DNA of 47,263 nucleotides. It comes from Tubiluchus corallicola (Eukaryota; Animalia; Priapulida). The notes under the pieces were generated by a model that was given only the letters and a program-made list of their open reading frames with translations, did no database searches and was not told where the DNA came from. The stretch is taken from NCBI GenBank assembly GCA_030141605.1, contig JAQGDQ010001325.1, forward strand, positions 1 through 47,263. The letters are read 5' to 3'. The translations under genes and the position numbers were made by a program. Within the stretch, counting starts at the first letter, position 1. The number at the start of each line of letters is the position of its first letter. Below are positions 10,730 through 45,735 of this stretch, in pieces.

Positions 10730-11610
10730 ATTACAACAGTAATAGATCAGATATTTGGAGGCTATCACTTGTCACAAATGCAGTATCAGAAATGTAAATC
10801 TAAGTCAAACACGTTTGACCACTTCTTGGATATCAGCTTAGACATTAAAGGAATGGTCTCTGTTCAGAAAAATGGAGAGGTTTGTCCAGCCGGAGTTGTT
10901 GCAGAAAGAGAATGCTTATAACTGTAAAGTTTGTAATTGTAAAGTGACTGCATTTAAACCCTTCTCCGTTGCAAAAGAGCAGAATGTCTTGACATTGCAA
11001 TTGAAACGTTTTGAAATGGCTGCCATTGGTGGGTGTGGTCGGAAAATTCACGATTCTGTAGCCTACCCTGATAACAGGGGCGGAACTAGGGGGGAGCGGG
11101 GGGGGGGGAGGCTGTCAAAATTTGCGCCCCCCCTGTAAAATCGGACAAATAATTTTTTTGCAGTGAAAATTGCAGTTCGCATGTAATCATTTTAAATATG
11201 AATTAGAATTAGGTAAAAAAATGTTTGGTAGCTTCAGTGTATTATTTTCTTAAAACTTGTGTGTGATAAATTTCTGTAAATAACAATTTAGTTAGAGGCA
11301 CATTAATAACGTTTGGTTAACTGAGAGTTACTTTTCTCATTATTGCTCTGTCCTACACACATGGTAATTATAGGCCTGCATGCAGTATAAAAGGGGTTAA
11401 AAATTGGCTTAACCATTATTTAACCACATCGGATACCTCGCCCCCCCCCAGAAAATTTTTGCGCCCCCCCCCCGCTTGCGACATCTAGTTTCCGCCCTGC
11501 CTGATAAGCTGAATATTAAACCATATATGACTTGTCGAGATGCAGCCCCAGTCATGTACACTTTGCATGGAATAGTATGTCATAGTGGTATGAAGTGAAT
11601 GACACTATAA
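10730..11610 (+). pseudogene. USP36/USP42-like ubiquitin-specific protease (peptidase C19) pseudogene fragment, intronless over this span
   Basis: Translation: ITTVIDQIFGGYHLSQMQYQKCKSKSNTFDHFLDISLDIKGMVSVQK / frameshift / MERFVQPELLQKENAYNCKVCNCKVTAFKPFSVAKEQNVLTLQLKRF...KIHDSVAYPD [MITE] KLNIKPYMTCRDAAPVMYTLHGIVCHSG / WYEVND. This is collinear with the USP36/42 catalytic domain as recalled. Confidence 0.88.
11075..11499. mobile_element. hAT-type MITE, 425 bp, inserted in the USP pseudogene
   Basis: TIRs CAGGGGCGGAACTAG / CTAGTTTCCGCCCTG. Exact 8-bp TSD CCTGATAA at 11067-11074 and 11500-11507. Confidence 0.93.
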
Positions 11611-11735: not shown

Positions 11736-13462
11736 CAGAAGCGGATCCGGAGAGGGGTGCGCACCCCCCCCCCTCCGTTTTGTCAAATGGAAATTAAATA
11801 CAACGGCGTTCCGTTCGCCGTGTAAATACGGGAAATTTAACTTAAAGTAAAACTGGACGCAATCTTAAACTGCAGGTCAAAACAATCTACTCTTTCATAT
11901 ATTAAAAGGAAACAAACTATTTTTTCAAAAATGACTTACGTGAAAGAATTATTACCACACAAACACAATTTCACGTTCACGCCACTAGTTCTTCTCTGTT
12001 ACATGCATTTCGCCATTCGCTACTTAGATGGGCACAAGCGCCTGCATTTCGGAAGCGCATTGCACAAAAAACAGGTGCTGTACCTCTCAGTTTAGATGTG
12101 CTAGTTTGTGACAGCTCAACCGTGATCACAATTTAAATCTTAAAACTTGCCTAATTTTAGTACAACACACTGAATATCTTACAGTAGCACTGTACTTCAA
12201 ATTTTGCTTTCGCAAACACGTGCAACATGCTCGTTGAATATTTTTGCTCTCGAAAATTATGTTACTTTGTGATGTCATCAATAGTTGGGGTCCCCCGCCG
12301 TTAATTAAGTCTTTAATCTATTATTTAATTATCAGAAACGCGTTTGCAGTATTAATTCCGTTAAAATGTATACTTTTTATCTGACTTGAAAATGGGGTAG
12401 TAAAATCATCCTGGATTCCTTTAATACTGTAACCCTGGATCATAGCTTTGCGAAATCAGAAAGCCTGCATAGCTGATCGGCCATTGGCAACGTTGCTCTG
12501 TACGTAACTGCAGTGTACAAGTGCAGCATGTACGTTGCTCTGTACGTAACTGCAGTGTACAAGTACAGCGTGTACGTTTCTCTGTACGTAACTGCAGTGT
12601 ACAAGTACAGCGTGAACGTTGCTCTGTACGTACCTGCAGTGTACAAGTACAGCGTGTACGTTGCTCTGTACGTAACTGCAGTGTACACGTACAGCGTGAA
12701 CGTTGCTCTGTACGTAACTGCAGTGTACAAGTACAGCGTGAACGTTGCTCTGTACGTAACTGCAGGGTACAAGTACAGCATGTACGTTGCTCTGTACGTA
12801 ACTGCAGGGTACAAGTACAGCGTGAACGTTGCTCTGTACGTAACTGCAGTGTACAAGTACAGCGTGAACGTTGCTCTGTACGTAACTGCAGTGTACAAGT
12901 ACAGCGTGAACGTTGCTCTGTACGTAACTGCAGTGTACACGTACAGCGTGAACGTTGCTCTGTACGCAACTGCAGTGTACAAGTACAGCGTGAACGTTTC
13001 TCTGCAGTGTACAAGTACAGCGTGTACAAAAATGTCGAAGCGCGTGTTGTGGCGGAGCTAGAGTGCTGTAAAGAAATGGCTTCCGTGCACGGCTTCATAA
13101 CTGTCGTCTGGGCACTTATTTCTTGCTCTAATTGGTATCCCTCATCTACCGACTTGTGTTAATTGTATTAATACAACCTGCGACAGACTGTTAGTATATA
13201 ATGTTCACATCATTTACGGCTGAGTTTTTAATTTGCTACATTGCTAAGTAAAGCTTTTATTTTGTCCAAAATAAAACAGATTCATTTTGTTACGTAGTTC
13301 ACATTGTCTATAAATACTGTATATTAGAAAATACAGGTTGGATGGACGTTTTCTAGAAAAAAAATCACGTTTTTAAGTAGCGTAAAAGTCACCAATATGC
13401 TTCCCCTAGCTAAGCTAACCTCGACTTACCCCTCCCTTTCAAAAATCCTGCATCCGCCCCTG
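11736..13462. mobile_element. Possible older hAT-type non-autonomous element containing a 42-bp minisatellite
   Basis: Imperfect TIRs CAGAAGCGGATCCGG / CCTGCATCCGCCCCTG resemble the CAGGGGCGGA family. No clean TSD found. Confidence 0.45.
12490..13028. repeat. Minisatellite, about 12.5 x 42 bp
   Basis: Unit aacgttgctctgtacgtaactgcagtgtacaagtacagcgtg. It gives the 14-aa periodic ORFs in four frames. Confidence 0.97.
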
Positions 13463-13535: not shown

Positions 13536-16500
13536 CGTTGATTTGTTTTTATCTAATAATCATCTTGTAGAGTTCTATCGGTTCTATTGCATTTATGAAA
13601 CAGGCCTACGTTGTTGATTTGTTTTTATCTAATAATCATCTTATAGAGTTCTATCAATTCTATTGCATTTATGAAACAGGCCTACGTTGTTGATTTGTTT
13701 TTATCTAGTAATCATCTTATAGAGTTCTACCGGTTCTATTGCATTTATGAAACAGGCCTACGTTGTTGATTTGTTTTTATCTAGTAATCATCTTATAGAG
13801 TTCTACCGGTTCTATTGCATTTATGAAACAGGCCTACGTTGTTGATTTGTTTTTATCTAGTAATCATCTTATAGAGTTCTACCGGTTCTATTGCATTTAT
13901 GAAACAGGCCAACGTTGTTGATTTGTTTTTATCTAGTAATCATCTTGTAGAGTTCTGCCGGTTCTATTGCATTTATGAAACAGGCCAACGTTGTTGATTT
14001 GTTTTTATCTAATAATCATCTTATAGAGTTCTACCGGTTCTATTGCATTTATGAAACAGGCCAACGTTGTTGATTTGTTTTTATCTAGTAATCATCTTAT
14101 AGAGTTCTACCGGTTCTATTGCATTTATGAAACAGGCCAACGTTGTTGATTTGTTTTTATCTAATAATCATCTTATAGAGTTCTATCAATTCTATTGCGT
14201 TTATGAAACAGGCCAACGTCGTTGATTTGTTTTTATCTAATAATCATCCTATAGAGTTCTATCAATTCTATTGCATTTATGAAACAGGCCAACGTTGTTG
14301 ATTTGTTTTTATCTAATAATCATCTTATAGAGTTCTATCAATTCTATTGCATTTATGAAACAGGCCACCGTTGTTGATTTGTTTTTATCTAATAATCATC
14401 TTATAGAGTTCTATCAATTCTATTGCATTTATGAAACAGGCCAACGTTGTTGATTTGTTTTTATCTAATAATCATCTTATAGAGTTCTATCAATTCTATT
14501 GCATTTATGAAACAGGCCTACGTTGTTGATTTGTTTTTATCTAATAATCATCTTATAGAGTTCTATCGATTCTATTGCATTTATGAAACAGGCCAACGTT
14601 GTTGATTTGTTTTTATCTAATAATCATCTTATAGAGTTCTATCAATTCTATTGCATTTATGAAACAGGCCACCGTTGTTGATTTGTTTTTATCTAATAAT
14701 CATCTTGTAGAGTTCTGTCGGTTCTATTGCATTTATGAAACAGGCCAACGTCGTTGATTTGTTTTTATCTAATAATCATCTTATAGAGTTCTATCGGTTC
14801 TATTGCATTTATGAAACAGGCCTACGTTGTTGATTTGTTTTTATCTAATAATCATCTTATAGAGTTCTATCAATTCTATTGCATTTATGAAACAGGCCAA
14901 CGTTGTTGATTTGTTTTTATCTAATAATCATCTTATAGAGTTCTATCAATTCTATTGCATTTATGAAACAGGCCAACGTCGTTGATTTGTTTTTATCTAA
15001 TAATCATCTTATAGAGTTCTATCAATTCTATTGCATTTATGAAACAGGCCAACGTCGTTGATTTGTTTTTATCTAATAATCATCTTATAGAGTTCTATCA
15101 ATTCTATTGCATTTATGAAACAGGCCTACGTTGTTGATTTGTTTTTATCTAATAATCATCTTATAGAGTTCTATCAATTCTATTGCATTTATGAAACAGG
15201 CCAACGTCGTTGATTTGTTTTTATCTAATAATCATCTTATAGAGTTCTATCAATTCTATTGCATTTATGAAACAGGCCTACGTTGTTGATTTGTTTTTAT
15301 CTAATAATCATCTTATAGAGTTCTGCCGGTTCTATTGCATTTATGAAACAGGCCAACGTTGTTGATTTGTTTTTATCTAATAATCATCTTGTAGAGTTCT
15401 ATCAGTTCTATTGCATTTATGAAACAGGCCTACGTCGTTGATTTGTTTTTATCCAATAATCATCTTATAGAGTTCTATCAATTCTATTGCATTTATGAAA
15501 CAGGCCTACGTTGTTGATTTGTTTTTATCTAATAATCATCTTATAGAGTTCTGCCGGTTCTATTGCATTTATGAAACAGGCCAACGTTGTTGATTTGTTT
15601 TTATCTAATAATCATCTTGTAGAGTTCTATCAGTTCTATTGCATTTATGAAACAGGCCTACGTTGTTGATTTGTTTTTATCTAATAATCATCTTATAGAG
15701 TTCTATCAATTCTATTGCATTTATGAAACAGGCCAACGTCGTTGATTTGTTTTTATCCAATAATCATCTTATAGAGTTCTATCAATTCTATTGCATTTAT
15801 GAAACAGGCCTACGTTGTTGATTTGTTTTTATCTAGTAATCATCTTATAGAGTTCTACCGGTTCTATTGCATTTATGAAACAGGCCAACGTCGTTGATTT
15901 GTTTTTATCCAATAATCATCTTATAGAGTTCTATCAATTCTATTGCATTTATGAAACAGGCCTACGTTGTTGATTTGTTTTTATCTAGTAATCATCTTAT
16001 AGAGTTCTACCGGTTCTATTGCATTTATGAAACAGGCCAACGTTGTTGATTTGTTTTTATCTAATAATCATCTTGTAGAGTTCTATCGGTTCTATTGCAT
16101 TTATGAAACAGGCCAACGTTGTTGATTTGTTTTTATCTAATAATCATCTTGTAGAGTTCTATCGGTTCTATTGCATTTATGAAACAGGCCAACGTTGTTG
16201 ATTTGTTTTTATCTAATAATCATCTTATAGAGTTCTATCAATTCTATTGCATTTATGAAACAGGCCAACGTTGTTGATTTGTTTTTATCTAATAATCATC
16301 TTATAGAGTTCTATCAATTCTATTGCATTTATGAAACAGGCCAACGTTGTTGATTTGTTTTTATCTAATAATCATCTTATAGAGTTCTATCAATTCTATT
16401 GCATTTATGAAACAGGCCAACGTTGTTGATTTGTTTTTATCTAATAATCATCTTATAGAGTTCTATCAATTCTATTGCATTTATGAAACAGGCCAACGTT

Positions 16501-16862
16501 GTTGATTTGTTTTTATCTAATAATCATCTTATAGAGTTCTATCAATTCTATTGCATTTATGAAACAGGCCAACGTTGTTGATTTTTTTTTATCTAATAAT
16601 CATCTTATAGAGTTCTATCAATTCTATTGCATTTATGAAACAGGCCTACGTTGTTGATTTGCTTTTATCTAATAATCATCTTATAGAGTTCTACCGGTTC
16701 TATTGCATCTATGAAACAGGCCTACGTTGTTGATTTGTTTTTATCTAATAATCATCTTATAGAGTTCTACCGGTTCTATTGCATCTATGAAACAGGCCAA
16801 CGTTGTTGATTTGTTTTTATCTAGTAATCATCTTATAGAGTTCTATCAATTCTATTGCATTA
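13536..16862. repeat. Satellite array, about 44 x 76 bp
   Basis: Unit cgttgttgatttgtttttatctaataatcatcttatagagttctatcaattctattgcatttatgaaacaggcc(t/a)a. The caggcc anchor falls at 13601, 13677 and onward. Confidence 0.98.
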
Positions 16863-16964: not shown

Positions 16965-17169
16965 TCATTCATATTTCACGAAGAATCGCATCCAAAGTTT
17001 CCATGGTACAAGCAATGCGTCACGTTTGGATCGTTTCCGTCCGAACAACACGAACTCGCTTATAACTTATTCAACATGGCGTCCATGTACCTGTTGCCCC
17101 TCATGGGAATCATCTTCTCCTACACGCTCATCGTCATAGAAATAACGAAAAAATCAAAAGAAGGAAAAG
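16965..17169 (+). CDS. GnRH/AKH(ACP)-receptor-family rhodopsin GPCR, internal exon (ECL2-TM5-ICL3)
   Basis: Acceptor ttttttttcag| (phase 0) and donor G|gtaatt (phase 1). Encodes SFIFHEESHPKFPWYKQCVTFGSFPSEQHELAYNLFNMASMYLLPLMGIIFSYTLIVIEITKKSKEGK. The QCVT ECL2 motif and YxxPL TM5 are characteristic of the GnRH-receptor superfamily. Confidence 0.92.
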
Positions 17170-18144
17170 GTAATTACGTTTTTTTTATTATTACGTGAGG
17201 CAGAGTGCATAGCTACGTGCTCAAGTGTGTGTGTGTGTGCTTCATTTGAGTGGGTCTTCAGTGCCCAGGTTCAATACTCACTCTGAGCGTATTCATTCGC
17301 CATTCTGATACTGGCCGTTCACCATGCAGTAGAGAGAGAATGTATCCCACGTCAGAAAGTGGCTAACACAGATTATCAGGTTCAGTGACTATCGCAGGGT
17401 GTTGTCCTTGATAAGCCAGGTGCCGGTCTTGCCACAAACAAAGTTGTTTAGATTCTGCACAACGTGCCGATGTGTATAAAAAATGAAAACGTACGGCGTG
17501 TCTGAAAAATGTGGCCAATTTTGCTTGGAACATGCAGGGCTAAGCTTTGCAGGGGGGACCAAAGTGGTCGATATTTTGACCCTGGGGGTCGATAAACGTC
17601 TGCGGGTCAAAAAGGTGTCAATAAACAATGGGTCGTTTGCAGCTTTGGGATCGAAAACTGATATTCGTAGAAGAAATAAAAATACGTGAAATGTAACTTG
17701 CTGATACACGTTTCTAATTCGAAAATAATTAGCTTTTATTGTCTATTTAATTATGTCGTGTTTTGTGAACCATAATCATAATAATATAGTTACAATAATT
17801 GTAATTGTAACAATATTTGGAATCAGAAGACAATGTTATAATAATACTTGTTTCCACATGGATGAATGTGGAATATAACTGGAAGATTAACCCTTTCCCC
17901 ACATTTGAAATTGTAGTTTTGTTGTTTTAATAAAAAAGTGAATTAAATGGCGCCTGTGTGTTAGGATTATACATGTACTATTATAGTCTATAGTCTGCTA
18001 ATTAACTCTGCTAATTAGCTGTAGTTAATTGTCTTTCTTGGATCGTGTTGATTTCTACAGTTCGTGTTAATTTCATTTGAAAGATTTAATAGATTAATTT
18101 CGCAATAAACATATACATATACATTACATGTGCATCGATAATCA

Positions 18145-18545
18145 GGTTTTGTTAATACAGAAATATGATACAATTCATGAATTCTGCGCTAGAGACCTAA
18201 GAAGCTAGCTTATGGTAGGCCACTAGAATTAGTTACGAAAAAAAATTACGATATATACAGATACAATATTACAATATATACAAATATATATACGGGTGGG
18301 AAGTAATAAAAATATTATTATACTAGAGGGGAAGTTTTTGAAAATGAAAAACAACAAATCATGATTGAGTGATCAGTTATATGTTTCGAGTAAGTTTAAT
18401 TTATAATTTTTTTTTAAATATGGACAGCGAGTTGGCATTTTTAATAGCTGGAGCGATTGAATTCCATATGTAAGGGCCATTGTATTTAATAGAATATTTT
18501 CTAACATTTGTGTTGCACTGTATGTAGTGATAGTTAAGTCTATGA
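18145..18545 (-). mobile_element. 3' fragment of a LINE (Crack/L2/CR1 group): ORF2 C-terminus plus 3' UTR
   Basis: Minus strand reads QCNTNVRKYSIKYNGPYIWNSIAPAIKNANSLSIFKKKL, the usual ORF2 C-terminal motif. Confidence 0.75.
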
Positions 18546-18649
18546 CGTGTGCAAATAGAATTCATGACCCCATTCTACGTCCTGGCTTGTGGGCCTTTAG
18601 GAGCAATCAAAAGTTCTTCTGCTTCTGTTATAGTGTGCACACTCTTCAT

Positions 18650-19264
<615 letters not shown>

Positions 19265-21194
19265 CTCTTCATGTACAGACTATTGGCTAGAATCTAATTC
19301 GTTATACCATTAGGCAGAAAATTTTTGAAACAGTAACTCTTCTTGTTCACGTACATCCATTTCACTAGTATCATCATCTTCGCAACCATAACTCAGGTCT
19401 GGTTGCACATCTTTCATTAGGCTTTACGAATCTCTTCACTGACCGCCAGGGTTTTTTCGCCTTTCGTTTTACCTCCTAAAGTCTGCGATTCTTATACGTT
19501 TATCTGCCAAAATTACACAAATGCCATTGAGGGAACACTTCTTGTAGAAACGGAAGGAGTCGTTACGTTCCCCCGGGCTCTATGTATATAATATGAACTG
19601 GCCATAAACAGGTTAACGCATCAGTAATATCTCCGTGAATGCCCTAATTTTAGGAAGCCTGGTAAAGCAAAAATAGCGCTCTACTGAGGTAACAGAGCTC
19701 CTTGTTGGCGTGGATGAGTCATACATTTTGACAGGAAAATAACCTTAAGTAGTTTATTCCATTTAATTAACGTGCTACATGCACTTTAAGCAGTTACACA
19801 TAAACCATGTTGTTACTTATGCTAAATTTAAAAATTAAAGAATAACTTCCAGAATTTGGCGTCCTAAGCAACCGTCTAATTCGCCTAGTAACGTAACCGG
19901 TTTACAAGGGATGTGTGCGTTGTCATTAACAGCTCATTAAAAGCGGATTGATGCAAATTATTCATGATTATAGAGATTCTCGGGACTCTAATAATTGCCC
20001 TGTGCAAGGTAAATACTGACGTGTGTAACTTCAACCATAGGGGCCGGGGGAGTCAGAGGGTGCGGTTGCCCTCCCAGGGCAAATGAATTGTACATTTCCA
20101 GCGAAAATGTCCTTCAATATCCGAAAATTGCTTATGTATTCCATTACGAATATCTCCTTTCACTGGATGCAATTAGTGTTTCTTGAACGACGAGTTGTTT
20201 TAACTTTTAATAACTGTAAAGTTATAATAGTACCTGCTATCAATTTCAGTTCACTCAGCCTCATAAGTCTTTTTTATACTCTATATATCTCTATAATGTG
20301 CTTCTCAATGTGCTGGCAAAGTTATAGACACGTTTGCAGAAGAAAAACATGGGCCGTCACCATTATTTTTTTTTGAATTTTGGAAAATGTTAGAAAACGT
20401 ATTGTGAAAGTACATTTGTATGTTATTTCAGTGAAAATGCAAACCTTTGGTTTGTGTCTTGTCTTTTAGTAAAGGTTATTACAATTTGGATTTCTTAGGC
20501 TTGTATACTACTAAAATTGTAATTAGTATAGCGCGCCAGGAGATGACTGCCCCCTTCAAAATAGGGCAACTTAGAAAATGCTCAGGGCAAAATTCCTTAT
20601 GCCATCTTGTGAAACTTCCTGCCATTCGGCAAATTGCTTTTGCGATTTGAAATTGAGTTAGCTAATGCACACAGTTATCTACAAACATTCAAATCTAACA
20701 AAAACTTCATGTTGGTGATTACCAAGATATTTAGTGGCTATAAAATTTTTCATAGCCAGCAATAATGACTTCGAGGCTCGAGAATCTTTTAAATGTTGAT
20801 TAGTCGTCGTGAAGACCCTATGAAGTGGTATACAACAATAGTGTTGTGGAAAAATTGATATTACATGTGTGGGAAAAGTGTTAATGCTCCAAATGAAAGT
20901 GCTAGATCGTTATGCCCACACTGTTAGACTAACAGGTACCACGTACTTTTATGTATATATATAATGTGTGTGTGTATATATATATCAGAAGTCGGTACAT
21001 TATACATTAAACTCCCACTCCAACTCCGGCTCGGTTTGCAGTACTCTCAATATTTGGCTACAGTGGTTTTTTATCACTACTTCTTATGCTCGAAAAACAG
21101 TCTAGCTGCATGGACAGCGATACGAAAGCGTCTCAGAATGGGACGTTATGCATAAATGCGTTAAAAGTTAAAAGTAGCTGGAGTTTGTGTTCCT

Positions 21195-21380
<186 letters not shown>

Positions 21381-22057
21381 ATGTGCAAGGCATTAACCAC
21401 AGATTTCTTTTTTAATTTCTTGTTTAGTTATCTTTGTGTAGCTCAAAAGTTCAAAACCTCTTCGTTTTCTCACATCCATGGCTTCATTTCTGTGCTTAAT
21501 TACTTCTCGTAAAGCACCTGACCGACTATGCAATATCCGGCCGGTAAATATAAGCCCTCTTAATCAATAAGTAGTACTCTAGTACTCTCTTGGGACTTCG
21601 TTAATAAACGCAATTTGCACCTGCCTACATAAATTTACGACACAGCAAGTTGAACACACCTTGTGCTTGCGGACACTGATGAAATGAAAGTGAGTACGCT
21701 AAACTGCTTGTCATTATTTTATATTTAGGCAGAGTAGTTTATTAAGCTATTGCAAACGTAGTACACAGAAGTAATTGTCGCAATGGCTGCCTTGGAAAAT
21801 ATATTCTGGACATATGTCATGTTCAGTGTACATGTACCAGACTAGACCTCAGCTTCTGCCTTGTCAACAAGTTAAATATAATTTTTATAGGCTAGAAATT
21901 GGTCTTAACCTGAATATAAGTAACCTAACTAACCTAAATAATCTAAATTACTAGTACTAGCACATATTATCAACAAAGAAAGGCACTGCCCTGCTTGTGA
22001 AATCGATATTTATTACCTCAGTTTATCTGTTGATTAGCACGAAAATTTTTAAGGTTA

Positions 22058-23022
22058 ATGTATGGCCTACAGAAACGTAGTGAAGTACCTTTACTTCATT
22101 ACCGTGAATGTAGAATTATGCAATTAGATTATTTAATTAAATTTAATATTGCAGTATTCATGTATAAATGCAATAATAGACTATTTCCTAAGTTTTTTGC
22201 AATTCCTATCAAATTGACATCTAAGAGACATAATACAAGATTTAATCAATACATTGTGCCTTTCTCTAGAACCAACATAGCTAAACATTTTATAATATAT
22301 CAAGGACCAAAAGTCTGGAATGAGATTTGTCAATCCGCAAAAGATAGCAGATCTATTACTAGATTTAAAAAAATGCTAAAAAATCAAATTTTAAGTAAGT
22401 ATCAGTGAGTAATAAAAATTTCTATCAGTATCCATCCTCACAGTAGTTGCCAAACAGTGGTATTAGCTTAATCAAGTTATTTTAAATTTATATTAAAAAA
22501 TAATAGTCTTTCTATCTTTTATATCATCCCATATATGAGCTTCATTCATTACGTCATTCCATTTTAAGCACCATTTTTAAGCACATAACTCCCCTCACCG
22601 TCTGAGACTTACCTACTCAATGAAGCAGCAGTACATACATATAGCTACAAGTATCAGCCTCAAATATCCTAAAGCAAATGTAGTTATTATAGGGTACTAA
22701 ACAATGCACTAAACGAAATTAAATAAAAAACCAAATCAAATTTAGACAAAATTACCGTAGTACTCAATCTCACACATATAACAGTAATATTATATGTTAT
22801 ATTAGTAACAATCCTGAGAGGGTGGCTGACCTCGATAACTTATAGTTCTTTCGCCACCCTTTCACCACTAATCAATAATTACTTTTGTACTTTGTAATAT
22901 TATTGTATGTTGTACAGATTTATAAATCTCTTAGTTATGTATTTTGCTGTTTTAAAAATGGTGATAAACTAATAAACTTACTTACTTACTTACTTACTTA
23001 TTTACTTAGTTACTTACTTACC

Positions 23023-23078
<56 letters not shown>
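22058..23078 (+). mobile_element. 5'-truncated LINE (Crack/L2/CR1 group): ORF2 C-terminus, 3' UTR, stem-loop and (TTAC)n tail
   Basis: ORF 22058-22408 contains FMYK...HNTR...VPFSRTNIAKHFIIYQGPKVWNEI...FKKMLK. Hairpin agggtggc (22819)/gccaccct (22853). AATAAA at 22971 is followed by the (TTAC)n tail. Confidence 0.85.
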
Positions 23079-23549
23079 CCAAGTACATCTACATGAACAT
23101 ATCACAAATCTGTTTCTGCAAGTAAAGGATATACCCAATAACGAAAAATTTACACATCTGGCGTAAACTTATTCAACATTCGTCTCTGTTTTATTCTGCT
23201 AATATTCAGCTTGCATATACATTAATTTAAGGCCTTTAATGTGATACAGCAATGCCACAACAATTCATTTATTACAAATGTACCAAAAACATTTACTATG
23301 ATTTACATACCTTGTTACTTGTACCGTAACAGAAGAAATTGAGAAATCACATTTGAAAATACAGGGCATGCCTAATAAGAGTTGTGCAAGTTGCTACGTA
23401 AATGACACCAATACACAAATCTCTAAAAATCACATTTCTCCTTGTCCAATTCTTAGTAATTCCTTTATACACCTTAGGCATCGTATATTGTCAATTTTAA
23501 ATTTCAATATTTTGTTTTTGTAACAGCCGCTACGAAAAACAAGAGAAAT

Positions 23550-25043
23550 TTAATCATAACAACCTCCAACTGCTAGCCTAAGAATTGGGTCGAATGACTT
23601 TTCAGCCAGTACAAGCACAATGCCTGGACTAATCGGGTTTGTACCTCCTTTTCGCTGGTCAGGTAACTGAATTATTTGCGTTTGCTGATTGCTTGACTGC
23701 CGTGGTTGGCAGTCTGGTAAATTTAAATTGTCTACTGACATGTAGCATTTGTTATTTGGATCCAGGCCTTTATTTTTTGGAAACCAATCTTCGGCCACCA
23801 CGCGAATACCAGCAGCTGCAATTTGCTTTGGTAAAGTTACTTTATATTTATTATCCGGCGAAATAATGTAATTTTCGCTCATTAACTTTACCTCTTTGTC
23901 ATTTAAAACGCTCAAAACTTCATGCCTTCCACCAGTGTTTGTATACCATGTCCACTTATTGTCCTTGTCTAGATACTGAAACTTAAATTTGGTTACCAAG
24001 CGGCCTGTATAATTATAATATTTCGTTAGAATCTCTTCCGGCCAGAGTTCAAGTACTGTACTTTCAATGCCGGGCTTTATCCAAAAAGTCCTTATAAGGA
24101 TTCCTTTGTCGAACCGAACTTCAATCATAGGGCGGTAGTACAGGTTGTTTCCACGAACTGCGTTGTACTCAAATACAAATCCTCTCTCGTCCGCAATTTT
24201 GACATTCTCTGGGCCATTACCTTTATCCCAGTTTTGGGTTGGTGTAATATACAAGTTATCTCTTTCTTGGACTTCATTTCCATCTGCTGGAAAAAGCGGA
24301 TACCCGTCCCCTCGTAATCTTTCTGCCAACTCAGGATTAAAATCATAATTTCCACTACTCACTGAAGCCCTCGCATCATTAAATGTCTGCTGGATTTCTT
24401 CATCGTCTGAACTTGTAACTTCCGATGTACCCAAATCATAATACCCAACCATTGCAAAACTAACTGAATTTAAATTGCTGAAGGAGAAAAATTTCGTTTT
24501 GTCGCAGGTGTACTGCTCTTCCTCTTTCATCTGTATCTGGCAGAATGTTCCAGCGTATCCTGGAGAACACAAACATTTGTAGCCTTCAGATGTATACATA
24601 TTGTTTTCTTGAAAAATGATATTTTTGCAGGTACCACCGTTCGTGCATTTGTGCAAAGCCGTTTGTCCCTTCCCATCTCCGCTGCATTCGTCAATATCAT
24701 TTTCACACATTTTACCAGTAAAACCTGCCGGACACGTACATTTGAAGTCATTGTTAGGCAAACTTACACATGAAGCCTGTCTCGTAGTTTCAATTCCACA
24801 AATCCACGTAGCGAATTTCATACTAACACACAAATTAACTTTCTGGTCGCTAGGAAGGAGTATTTTAGCCACAGACAGCGCCTTCTCTCGGGCCTTTGCT
24901 GTTCCATATCTGCCTCTGGCAACATCCTCTTCGACCACACTCAGCATAGCATCGTAGACTGGTTCCATTAGAAATTTATCATAACCTGAGCATAGACCAA
25001 GTAACGCTTGCCAGAAAAGCGTCCATCTTAGTGCGCTTTTCAT
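23550..25043 (-). CDS. Secreted EGF-EGF-discoidin (F5/8 type C)-like protein, 497 aa, nested antisense in the GPCR intron
   Basis: Uninterrupted 1494-bp ORF from ATG 25043 (the track's 25058 start is GTG). Signal peptide MKSALRWTLFWQALLGLCSG. EGF1 ends CTCPAGFTGKMC; EGF2 is Ca-binding-like, DIDEC...CTNGGTCKN...CLCSPGYAGTFC. Discoidin-like strands: IEVRF, VTKFKFQY...W.WY, LPKQIAAAGIRVVAEDW, ILRLAVGGC. Minus-strand AATAAA at 23268-23273. Confidence 0.9.
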   Translation of the reverse strand: MKSALRWTLFWQALLGLCSGYDKFLMEPVYDAMLSVVEEDVARGRYGTAKAREKALSVAKILLPSDQKVNLCVSMKFATWICGIETTRQASCVSLPNNDFKCTCPAGFTGKMCENDIDECSGDGKGQTALHKCTNGGTCKNIIFQENNMYTSEGYKCLCSPGYAGTFCQIQMKEEEQYTCDKTKFFSFSNLNSVSFAMVGYYDLGTSEVTSSDDEEIQQTFNDARASVSSGNYDFNPELAERLRGDGYPLFPADGNEVQERDNLYITPTQNWDKGNGPENVKIADERGFVFEYNAVRGNNLYYRPMIEVRFDKGILIRTFWIKPGIESTVLELWPEEILTKYYNYTGRLVTKFKFQYLDKDNKWTWYTNTGGRHEVLSVLNDKEVKLMSENYIISPDNKYKVTLPKQIAAAGIRVVAEDWFPKNKGLDPNNKCYMSVDNLNLPDCQPRQSSNQQTQIIQLPDQRKGGTNPISPGIVLVLAEKSFDPILRLAVGGCYD

Positions 25044-26115
25044 TGCTCCAGGTATCACATGTCACTCTGATAATTAATCTTGTCCACTTTATCTATAGAG
25101 TTCACAAGTTTCGAGTATTGACCACAAAAATAAATGCAATTACTTCGCAAATGGTAACGTAAATTGTTACTTGCTGACATGTCTTCTCTCCGCTCCCTTT
25201 ATTTTGATTAGGCTACTGCTGTACAAGAGAGTCATTGTTGTGGGCGTCATTGTCTTACGTAGAACTTTCCAAATATGGAATGTTGCGCTGCGGTTATTTT
25301 TACTGTACGAAATTTATAGACGGGAGGTGGTGCTGTTGCAGCTCTTTAGCATACACATTACTACACTAATAATTCAATTTATTCATTTGTTTGTTAGTTA
25401 ATTGGCTATTCAGCTCCTATTTACATTTGTTTATTTAATTATATATTTCAATTATATACATATTTGTTGTTTGTTTGTTTACGTGTTTCTTTCCCCTTTC
25501 CTTTCTTTCATTCATCTTTTCTTCTCTCTATTTTCTTCCTCAGATTGTAGATTGTTTCTTATATATTTATTTATTTATTAATTTATTTTACTTATTTTTT
25601 TACTTATTTTCTTATTTAATATTAAATTCATTTAATTACATGAAGTCACGCTGTGTATTATTTGTTCCATTATTTGACATCATTTTATTACATATTTAAT
25701 TATTTACTGCATTTATTTATTTTTACTAGTCATTTGCTTGTTCATTCTTTTGTTTGTTAACTTATTTATTTGCTAATAACATTGGCACTTAATGCTCATT
25801 AATCTACCCGAAAATTAGCCAGTTTCATTAGATTACCACAGCAGTGTTAATGGCCTTGCCACTGAGCGGTTATTTGATAAGCATTTTCTGATAATTAAAG
25901 CTGTCTGTTGTCGTTTACATGACCACCTGTTATCTTAATCTTAGCACTAGATAATATTACAATTACCTATATACATGTAGGTATAGCCCTGTAAATAACA
26001 TGTATTTTACTGATGCTACATGTATTGTATATATATATATATATATATATAGGTCGATATGTGCTGTTTCATATTGTGAGTATAGAATTTATTAACCGTG
26101 TGTAGCTGTCACTGC

Positions 26116-26596
<481 letters not shown>

Positions 26597-26668
26597 GTCA
26601 CTGCAAAACGGGATGATTTCATTTGATAAGTATTTTTACAATGATACTTATTCTTTCACTTTTTACAG

Positions 26669-27111
26669 TATCCTCAGCGAGCTACGATGGTCTTCGCAGA
26701 TCGGGAGAAGGCAATATCGCACGAGCAAAGAAAAAGACGCTAAAGATGACGCTAATAATTGTGCTGGTGTTTTTCCTGTGTTGGACGCCATATTACGTCA
26801 TGGCCTTGTGGTATTGGTTTGACAAGCAATCAGCCAAAAACGTTGACCCGAGGATTCAGAGAGGATTATTTCTGTTCGCCCTATCTAATGCCTGCATGGA
26901 CCCAATTGTTTATGGTCTTTTTACGGTTAATTTGAAACGAGACGCCGCGAAATGGTGTCTTGGGTGGTTGCCCAACAGCTGTAAAACGATAGACGATAAG
27001 ACTGCCTCTGCTGCCAACTCAAATCAAACTGAGCATATGTATTTTAACGAAACCGATTCTTCTCTTCGATGCCACAGTGCAGGAAGACGAAGTCGAACGT
27101 CTGTGCTGTAA
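26669..27111 (+). CDS. GnRH/AKH-receptor-family GPCR, terminal exon (ICL3-TM6-TM7-C tail)
   Basis: Acceptor tttttacag|TA completes G+TA = Val in frame with exon 16965-17169. Encodes LRRSGEGNIARAKKKTLKMTLIIVLVFFLCWTPYYVMALWYWFD...LFLFALSNACMDPIVYGLF, with CWTPYY and DPxxY. Stop at 27109-27111; AATAAA at 27149. Confidence 0.95.
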
Positions 27112-36792: not shown

Positions 36793-37277
<485 letters not shown>

Positions 37278-44187: not shown

Positions 44188-44576
44188 GAGTGTTTTTTAC
44201 TCAAGATTAATGGCTCCTTCTCGTGGTTTTGTCGATGGCTTTGATTTCATTTGTACGAAAGATCACGAAGGATCACTTTGTGTGTGACACCCCGTAATTT
44301 GCGAAACAGCTGCGTGTTAGCAGTACTGAAAACCAATCTAAGTTGTAGTCTTTGAACTTGTTCTTAGCTTACCTGCAGGAGCATTCTAACGCGGAACACT
44401 GTGTAAAATAATGTTTCAATCGATGTTTCTATCATGACACGATTGTAACTTGTCGCTGCGACACAAACTATTACGCCAAAATAAGGAACGTTAAGCCAAA
44501 CCATGGAAAGTAAGAAGTTGCAGATTTCAACAAGCAGGGGATAATATCACCCATAAATGCTATCATCTGTCAAACA

Positions 44577-45524
44577 TTATGTAAAGTTACCATAACCCAC
44601 TGCTTGCAAGTAATCCGAACATTTTGACTCGATTAGTTTAACTTCATCTTTACTTAATGTTGTTTTCCATTTGTCTATATGAGAACTGGGATCATTTCTT
44701 AATGTAGAAAGTTTCCAACGAGGAACAGTAGCCACAGGATTTGCTTTATCGTCAAAATTGTATCCTTTTCCTTCTGCCACATTTTCTAAGTACTTAAAAA
44801 TGTTTTTTATCAACGGACAAACCAGTAAAGTTGAATATTTTCTCGACTGACGACTTAAGGTTTTTTACGAGTTCTTCATATTTCACGAATAAGAGATTTG
44901 ATTCGTGAATGTTGGCATTCTTCGCGCTAAAATAATTTTCCATCATATCAGTGCAGAGTTCATTTACTTGTCGTTTTCGGAACCATCCTATCGTCTTTCT
45001 TGATGCAAAAACTGCTCTAGGGTCTCGTGCCAGGTAGATGACTTTCGTAATTAGTGGTTCCTTGAACATGGGAAGCAGATCGACTACATGCAAACGAACT
45101 GTTTTGATCACTGTTAGTCTACGACTCCTGCATAAACTATCGAATGAATGTTTGCTGAGTTCCAATACTTTTGCGCCGCAGTTCTTTACTCTTAACTGAT
45201 CAACATCATCATCACATCCAGTCTCGGAGGTCATTGCTTTGCTCCGACCCAAAAACCTCTGCCAATGCCGCATTTTTAGTATTTTTGGCGATTTGTTCAT
45301 TTCGACCACGTCTGTGTAATCGCAATGTGACAAGTTTTTTAATATTCCTACACTTTGCGCTATAATGCTCTCATGTTTATGGCCTCTTCTTGTCTTCCAT
45401 GGCTTCACTTCCACAGACGGTTTTTGAAAACTGTCGAGCATCTTCAATGGTTCAAACACGTACATCACGTCAGGATGGTTGTTGAAAATTTCGCCCAAAA
45501 GACTTGAGCCACTTCTCTGATAAG
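44577..45524 (-). pseudogene. Carbohydrate 6-O-sulfotransferase (CHST1/3/4/5-like) catalytic domain, frameshifted (pseudogene or assembly indel)
   Basis: 5'-PSB motif AYQRSGSSLLGEIFNNHPDVMYVFEP, VIKTVR, 3'-PB motif KVIYLARDPRAVFASR, VKYEEL and C-terminal KWK...IESKC..YLQAVGY. It is split into two ORFs at the T6 run 44803-44808. Confidence 0.85.
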
Positions 45525-45735
45525 CTAAAAAGTTTTAAAATTTGTGATGAATTTTATAATACCTTGAACTGTATAATAATATTAATATAGCAATAAAACA
45601 CTTTTGCGTCTGTTACATGTGGCTTCATATGAAAACCGCGAAACCGGCCAAAAATGGATTAACTTTTAACAAAGGTGGCGTGCGCTGAGCAAAGTTATTA
45701 GCCGGAACCTACCCTCTAATGAATACTTCGTTTGT

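What the first reader, a model, noticed from the sequence alone, without database searches (positions are those of the whole stretch)
23550..25043. Intact antisense gene for a secreted EGF-EGF-discoidin-like protein nested in the last intron of a GnRH/AKH-type receptor
Seen: a 497-codon ORF with no stops or frameshifts, a signal peptide and a poly(A) signal, lying wholly within the 17170-26668 intron on the opposite strand. Nearly everything else in that intron is decayed transposon, which argues for purifying selection. Established: EGF repeats followed by F5/8C domains is the lactadherin/MFG-E8 (SED1)/Del-1 layout, used for integrin and phospholipid binding and for gamete adhesion; such genes are normally multi-exon. 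Inference: a lineage-specific, possibly retroposed, secreted adhesion or lectin protein that may be transcriptionally coupled to, or mutually exclusive with, a neuroendocrine receptor.
Basis: partly seen in the sequence, partly recalled or inferred. Interest (0 to 1): 0.78.

Follow-up and report, generated by a model that had tools for sequence, protein, structure and literature searches.

The report
Nested secreted gene, swollen discoidin domain
Inside the last intron of an invertebrate hormone-receptor gene, the opposite strand carries an intact, conserved 497-codon gene that likely encodes a secreted binding protein with two EGF modules and one predicted discoidin domain swollen to twice normal size; it resembles the milk protein lactadherin but lacks its defining features, and its position in the intron is probably incidental.

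Summary
The ORF is real: 23550-25043 (-), 497 codons, inside a GT-AG intron (17170-26668) whose flanking exons splice in frame into an AKH/ACP-type receptor. One full-length relative exists (85% identical, all 17 cysteines kept). Its changes are more conservative than in any of 2000 neutral simulations per setting, so the gene is under purifying selection. Two EGF modules are confirmed. The 316-residue C-terminal part is probably discoidin (F5/8C): Pfam gives only sub-threshold hits, the ESM Atlas 0.92, and both AlphaFold jobs failed. It reads best as ONE domain with about 160 residues of loop insertions, not lactadherin's two. EGF2 has no RGD; an RGD lies in the discoidin part instead. It therefore fails lactadherin/Del-1 membership while sharing the layout. 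Coupling to the receptor is unsupported: in Drosophila nested pairs are common and their expression is not especially correlated. Retroposition is untested: no parent gene, poly(A) tract or target-site duplication was found. Only 13% of the intron is recognisably repetitive by self-comparison. Expression was not shown. The scan noted another intronless nested gene in this genome (unchecked). Verdict: a lineage-restricted secreted protein with an odd domain in an ordinary genomic arrangement.

The parts
23550..25043 (-). Intronless 497-codon ORF (P0001)
   Evidence: full-length relative P0002 at 85%
24984..25043 (-). Predicted signal peptide, aa 1-20
   Evidence: hydropathy only; more hydrophobic in P0002; cleavage site judged by eye
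24831..24983 (-). N-terminal segment aa 21-71 of no known family, 46 of 51 identical in the relative
   Evidence: Pfam gives only a weak hit at E 0.059 on aa 20-90
24705..24830 (-). EGF module 1, aa 72-113, six cysteines
24540..24698 (-). EGF module 2, aa 116-168; starts like a calcium-binding EGF; Cys3-Cys4 hairpin about 9 residues longer than in Notch repeats; no RGD
   Evidence: calcium-binding consensus recalled, not tested
23559..24506 (-). Probable single discoidin (F5/8C) domain, C180-C495, with about 160 residues of insertions and an extra cysteine pair C433/C445
   Evidence: Pfam sub-threshold; ESM Atlas 0.92; ordered blocks; fold not modelled
24306..24314 (-). RGD tripeptide aa 244-246 inside the discoidin-like part, kept in P0002
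   Evidence: may be chance
23268..23273 (-). First AATAAA, 276 nt past the stop (second at 23190-23195)
   Evidence: use not shown
16965..17169 (+). Penultimate coding exon of the AKH/ACP-type receptor
17170..26668 (+). Host intron, GT..AG, phase 1, 9499 nt
   Evidence: splicing inferred from the frame and the homology, not seen in RNA
26669..27111 (+). Last coding exon of the receptor

Best explanation
An intact 497-codon gene conserved in one relative lies antisense inside the receptor's last intron and likely encodes a secreted adaptor in which two EGF modules carry one predicted discoidin head whose enlarged loops would bind a specific extracellular protein or glycan. Shown: the ORF, the nesting frame, the EGF pair, purifying selection. 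Inferred: secretion through the N-terminal signal; a single F5/8C beta-sandwich closed by C180-C495; insertions lying in the loops that carry ligand specificity in this fold; a ligand other than phosphatidylserine, because the inserted loops are long and mostly net acidic. The gene is likely an independent transcription unit that arrived by duplication of an intronless or reverse-transcribed copy and has no functional tie to the receptor.
For: One full-length relative, 422 identical columns, 17 of 17 Cys kept. Neutral simulation to the same 73 differences: 0 of 2000 runs reach the observed mean BLOSUM62 of +0.21 (neutral -0.42 to -0.56) and 12-22 of 2000 escape a stop, at each of three settings. 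Contigs of run X1 show 3 synonymous and 1 non-synonymous listed difference in the ORF. F5/8C is the best or only Pfam hit on 3 of 4 C-terminal pieces and tied on the fourth, always profile positions about 60-119 on aa 347-424, and also in P0002. ESM Atlas: F5/8C clusters 0.92 and 0.91 for the C-terminal part alone. Of six blocks of a Nematostella F5/8C domain scanned along the protein, two score best at aa 348 and 399, and two more are within 1-2 points of best at aa 235 and 486, all in the right order. Only one terminal cysteine pair is available. Insertions have net charge -3, -3, -3, -1, +1, whereas lactadherin C2 spikes insert hydrophobic and basic residues (bioRxiv 10.1101/2020.04.03.023838, passages). 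Nested antisense genes are common and mostly unrelated to their hosts (PMC4394429 passages; PMC3814207).
Against: The fold is not proven. Pfam scores 13-15 bits against a cut-off of 28.2. Two AlphaFold jobs gave pLDDT 31 and 29. No discoidin chain appears in four PDB sequence searches with the C-terminal part; hhalign to P0004 gave probability 0.5%. The insertion-tolerant alignment beat shuffles only modestly (4-46 of 1000 as good) and lost to 24-45 of 94 real decoy windows. Two of six blocks did not map where predicted. The Atlas hit for the domain shares 161 of 256 features, under the 170 typical of the same family. No ligand, expression or secretion data. No parent gene, poly(A) tract or target-site duplication seen.
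Confidence: 0.55

Rival explanations
1. It is a diverged invertebrate counterpart of lactadherin/Del-1 that bridges anionic membranes to integrins, using the RGD at aa 244-246 in place of the EGF2 RGD.
For: The five best distinct Atlas sets for the whole relative are lactadherin/MFG-E8 clusters, 0.91-0.92, 167-174 of 256 features. EGF2 has a long hairpin and sits just before the discoidin part; Del-1 (4d90) matches over nearly equal lengths (aa 23-106 of the query piece to 17-102). The RGD is kept in P0002.
Against: No RGD in EGF2; no second discoidin domain (halves align to a reference domain no better than 113 and 657 of 1000 shuffles); Del-1 ranks 13th of 18 PDB hits behind Delta and Notch; no lactadherin or EDIL3 among 12 sequence hits. 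The Atlas score can reflect shared architecture. An RGD arises by chance in roughly a tenth of proteins this long (rough estimate). MFG-E8 is described as a vertebrate protein (PMC4939324, passages).
Confidence: 0.12
2. The C-terminal 316 residues are not one expanded discoidin domain but a full domain plus a partial duplicate, or another beta-sandwich of the galactose-binding-like clan.
For: The length equals two ordinary domains; weak half-against-half similarity in P0001 (23-50 of 1000 shuffles as good); Atlas neighbours include bacterial F5/8C and galactose-binding clusters at 0.90-0.91; Jacalin ties with F5/8C on one piece.
Against: The half-against-half signal vanishes in P0002 (270-308 of 1000); there is no cysteine near the midpoint; Pfam maps the second half of the profile only once.
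Confidence: 0.18
3. The nested gene is functionally tied to the receptor, being co-expressed with it or excluded by it through transcriptional interference in neuroendocrine target tissue.
For: Convergent overlap makes interference physically possible (PMC4394429 passage).
Against: No expression data; conservation of the nesting could not be tested; Drosophila nested pairs are no more correlated than random pairs on a chromosome (PMC3814207 section 6).
Confidence: 0.1
4. The ORF is transposon cargo or a recent dead copy, or the two receptor exons belong to different paralogues so that it is not intronic.
For: A diverged related sequence exists in run X1 (record 3), so more than one copy may exist; genome copy number could not be tested; splicing was not seen in RNA.
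Against: Purifying selection; single copy in the window with no repeat overlapping 23195-25400; no long terminal repeats flank it; the exons are collinear with three receptors and no other receptor exon lies in the window.
Confidence: 0.05

Closest known systems
Lactadherin / MFG-E8 (SED1) and Del-1 / EDIL3 (PMC4939324 passages; PDB 4d90, 2l9l)
   Same: Signal peptide, then EGF repeats, then discoidin-type sequence; similar total length; elongated hairpin in EGF2; nearest Atlas clusters.
   Different: No RGD in EGF2; probably one expanded discoidin domain instead of two compact ones; long, mostly acidic loops; extra 50-residue N-terminal segment; intronless coding region; invertebrate host.
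Invertebrate EGF + single F5/8C secreted proteins, e.g. Nematostella 'fibropellin-1 isoform X2' (P0004) and molluscan EGF/F5/8C Atlas clusters
   Same: EGF array followed by one C-terminal F5/8C domain.
   Different: Match to P0004 is over the EGF part only (15% coverage); its discoidin domain is about 155 aa against 316 here; orthology not shown.
Antisense nested genes (Drosophila survey PMC3814207; OMG, EVI2A, EVI2B in an NF1 intron, PMC4394429)
   Same: Whole gene in one intron on the opposite strand, apparently unrelated to the host.
   Different: No such case in an AKH/GnRH-family receptor was found by one search (its single hit concerned nested PCR primers).

Membership tests
Lactadherin/MFG-E8, Del-1/EDIL3 | N-terminal signal peptide | tested here: inconclusive
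   Hydropathy fits; no signal-peptide predictor available
Lactadherin/MFG-E8, Del-1/EDIL3 | EGF repeats before the discoidin part | tested here: met
   Pfam EGF above cut-off, two stretches; 12 cysteines
Lactadherin/MFG-E8, Del-1/EDIL3 | RGD in the second EGF repeat | tested here: not met
   Only RGD is at aa 244, outside EGF2; feature from PMC4939324
Lactadherin/MFG-E8, Del-1/EDIL3 | Two tandem discoidin domains | tested here: not met
   Halves do not each match a reference domain; blocks run once through aa 235-495; no midpoint cysteine. Sequence-level test only
Lactadherin/MFG-E8, Del-1/EDIL3 | Phosphatidylserine binding by hydrophobic/basic C2 spikes | not testable with these tools
   Predicted loops are long and mostly acidic; binding needs an assay
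F5/8 type C (discoidin) domain, PF00754 | Profile score at or above the gathering cut-off | tested here: not met
   13.1-14.7 bits against 28.2; long insertions would depress the score
F5/8 type C (discoidin) domain, PF00754 | Core sequence blocks in canonical order with terminal cysteines | tested here: inconclusive
   4 of 6 blocks in order; C180 and C495 kept in both proteins; failed against real decoys
F5/8 type C (discoidin) domain, PF00754 | Eight-stranded beta-sandwich fold | tested here: inconclusive
   AlphaFold pLDDT 31 and 29; Atlas features 0.92
Retrogene | Intronless coding region | tested here: met
   Collinear with P0002 over the full length
Retrogene | Intron-containing parent gene | not testable with these tools
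   No genome held; no other relative among 1.84 billion representatives
Retrogene | Genomic poly(A) tract and target-site duplication | tested here: not met
   None seen in 560 nt downstream or among repeats of 22400-26100; these marks decay in old copies
AKH/ACP/GnRH receptor family (host) | Best matches and tree position among protostome AKH/ACP-type receptors | tested here: met
   inside a 100/100 clade of 14 rows set against 6 vertebrate GnRH receptors; AKH versus ACP subtype not resolved

The most novel reading that the evidence does not exclude
This is a protostome member of the lactadherin/Del-1 lineage, described so far as vertebrate, that collapsed its two discoidin domains into one enlarged head and moved its integrin-binding RGD from EGF2 into a discoidin loop, giving an invertebrate its own bridging molecule for cell clearance or gamete adhesion.
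Probability: 0.1. Interest if true: 0.7.

Novelty: new variant of a known kind. Interest (0 to 1): 0.36.

Why it matters
If the single-domain reading holds, this is a discoidin domain doubled in size by loop insertions that are conserved as well as the core (75-95% against 79-100% identity), a natural example of how this fold can build a large new binding surface, in a poorly sampled animal group. The nesting itself is ordinary. It would matter much more if the protein proved to bridge membranes and integrins, which would extend lactadherin-like biology to protostomes.

Tried and rejected
No genome is held for this window, so copy number, parent gene and synteny were not testable. Sequencing runs: no RNA holder listed; run X2 laid nothing. 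Run X1 is of unknown kind and kept as contigs; its contigs cover parts of the ORF and the receptor's last exon from 26693, no joint at the exon start was shown, and gaps in cover are no evidence. P0003 (E 9e-5) is a repetitive bacterial-type mucin-binding protein, rejected as chance; it was reused as decoy. AlphaFold on the full protein and on aa 172-497, each with a two-row alignment, failed, so no fold search was run. PDB sequence searches with the C-terminal part gave only chance hits. NCBIfam: 0 families for 4 queries. Metagenome scan for relatives: 432 pattern matches, none confirmed. Attempts to gather more F5/8C domains for a profile gave one short locus and no plasmid match, so the alignment tests rest on a single reference domain; gap settings were varied (three, three) and all are reported. 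No residue-level alignment of EGF2 with Del-1 was seen. Paper searches for an invertebrate lactadherin or this protein: 1 listing, not read; 0; 1; 1 listing, not read; none described it in what I saw. One search listed 4 papers; passages of PMC5818035 added nothing on the subtype. Scan notes by sequence and by words: nothing.

Full report
Observation. The minus strand holds an ORF at 23550-25043, 497 aa. It is the longest stop-free frame in the intron (503 codons stop to stop); the next is 176 codons and runs through a simple repeat. At the ORF's base composition an open frame this long has a chance of about 3e-16 per start. AATAAA occurs 276 and 354 nt after the stop. The two host exons have proper splice dinucleotides and join in phase 1 into an unbroken receptor frame, which aligns to the Priapulus caudatus receptor over 168 columns at 61% with one 3-residue gap at the junction. 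tblastn with three receptors finds only these two exons in the window, so the 5' exons lie outside it and nothing suggests two paralogues. Splicing was not seen in RNA.

Host. Of 50 hits at E up to 1e-20 among 361 candidates, the best are an unnamed Logan protein, Priapulus, and mollusc and nemertean receptors named AKH/corazonin-related peptide receptor-like. A tree of 19 of those 50 hits (all 13 best, plus 6 vertebrate rows chosen from the other 37) and the window's product puts it with the protostome receptors, 100/100 against vertebrate GnRH receptors, but in no supported subgroup. The host is thus an AKH/ACP-type receptor of a protostome. Other notes of this scan call the animal priapulid-like (unchecked); my result is compatible but does not show it.

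Is the nested gene selected? One full-length relative was found, P0002, 500 aa, 85% identical, on a 1782-nt Logan contig of unknown kind; it is the only true hit for the C-terminal part among 1741 candidates and among 1.84 billion representatives (the second hit is chance). All 17 cysteines and 8 of 9 tryptophans are kept; the four gaps are whole codons by construction. Random mutation of the ORF to the same 73 differences gave 4-5 stops on average, no stop in 12-22 of 2000 runs, and never the observed mean BLOSUM62 of +0.21 (0 of 2000 at each of three transition biases). The no-stop figure is biased, since only intact proteins are in the database; the substitution figure is not. Contigs of run X1 at 98-99% identity show, among listed differences in the ORF, three synonymous and one Leu-to-Ile at depth 2. 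A further X1 contig of 1177 nt matches aa 342-374 at 81% nucleotide identity; its two 30-letter loose ends, translated by eye, continue in frame without a stop with 5 of 10 and 2 of 10 residues identical. That points to a diverged, locally intronless paralogue or relative, so this may be a small family.

Anatomy. Residues 1-20 look like a signal peptide by hydropathy, and there is no membrane segment or hydrophobic tail. Residues 21-71 are 90% conserved and of no known family. EGF1 (aa 72-113) and EGF2 (aa 116-168) pass Pfam and match Notch, Delta and Del-1 structures (18 hits). EGF2 needs a gap of about 9 residues against Notch repeats in its Cys3-Cys4 hairpin; that Del-1 and lactadherin carry their RGD in this hairpin is recalled, and the review read says only 'second EGF repeat'. 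Here EGF2 has no RGD; the only RGD is at aa 244-246, kept in P0002.

The C-terminal 316 residues. For a discoidin fold: Pfam F5/8C at E 0.034-0.11 on four pieces and 0.062 in P0002, always the second half of the profile; Atlas first hits F5/8C at 0.92 and 0.91, ten of the ten best named hits in one clan (the tool notes that a third of shuffled proteins also get ten of ten, and 4-10 in 100 score 0.9); blocks of a Nematostella F5/8C domain map in order at aa 235, 348, 399 and 486. Against: scores are far below cut-off, PDB searches and hhalign found nothing, the insertion-tolerant alignment failed against real decoys, and AlphaFold did not fold it. I put the discoidin fold at about 0.8. On one domain versus two: neither half matches the reference domain (113 and 657 of 1000 shuffles as good), the weak internal similarity in P0001 is absent in P0002, and the cysteines are 180, 433, 445 and 495 with none at the midpoint. 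One domain from C180 to C495 with five insertions is the simplest reading. The insertion boundaries were drawn by eye from recalled motifs; so drawn, they are 75-95% conserved and carry net charges of -3, -3, -3, -1 and +1. That four of them fall in the ligand-binding loops of the fold is inferred from recalled structure.

Mechanism. The most likely picture is a secreted adaptor: an EGF stalk presenting one enlarged discoidin head that binds a specific protein or glycan. Lactadherin binds phosphatidylserine through hydrophobic and basic spike residues (bioRxiv 10.1101/2020.04.03.023838, passages) and integrins through the EGF2 RGD (PMC4939324, passages); neither feature is evident here. The Atlas nevertheless ranks lactadherin clusters first for the whole relative (0.92, 172-174 of 256 features), which I read as shared layout but which keeps descent from a common ancestor open. 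It works like an EGF-discoidin matrix or surface binder; it is not a member of the lactadherin family by the tests run.

Nesting. About 10% of Drosophila genes are in nested structures, two-thirds of human nested genes are antisense, and most are functionally unrelated to the host (PMC4394429, passages). Nested pairs are less co-expressed than neighbours, and nested genes are narrowly and often testis-expressed (PMC3814207, abstract and section 6). The latter makes a reproductive role a reasonable guess, not evidence. No poly(A) tract or target-site duplication was seen, and no parent gene could be sought. A broken deubiquitinase-like piece upstream (Pfam UCH only E 0.08) and the scan's note of an intronless CEP290 in another intron (unchecked) suggest that such insertions are not rare in this genome. 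The claim that the rest of the intron is transposon is not shown: 1252 of 9499 bases are repeated within the window, none in 23195-25400, plus two LINE-like fragments at 22034-22405 and about 18400-18510 (LINE label recalled, Pfam silent).

Literature. Four searches for an invertebrate lactadherin-like or insertion-rich discoidin protein and one for a gene nested in an AKH receptor showed no description of this protein; two listed papers were not opened, no supplements were read, and the library lacks most subscription journals.

Verdict. Real and selected gene; ordinary arrangement; unusual, unproven domain expansion; function untested. New variant of a known kind, interest 0.36.

Noticed in passing
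window 44530-45540 (-): Intronless sulfotransferase-like sequence (Pfam Sulfotransfer_1 E 4e-11) whose frame breaks near 44800 and continues in another frame: a pseudogene or an assembly error.
   Followed up: partly
window 10750-11600 (+): Broken, intronless fragment resembling a ubiquitin-specific protease (Pfam UCH E 0.08), interrupted by an insertion at about 11080-11500; possibly a processed pseudogene upstream of the receptor exons shown.
   Followed up: partly
window 13540-16860: Tandem array of a unit of about 76 nt (read by eye) ending about 100 nt before the receptor exon at 16965.
   Followed up: no
window 18652-19264, 26161-26483, 36793-37275: Three copies, 85-90% alike, of a short element carrying an internal (GA)n tract; two lie in the host intron in opposite orientation on either side of the nested gene.
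   Followed up: partly
   Followed up: partly
window 12470-13030: Tandem repeat of about 36 nt that gives spurious ORFs on both strands.
   Followed up: no
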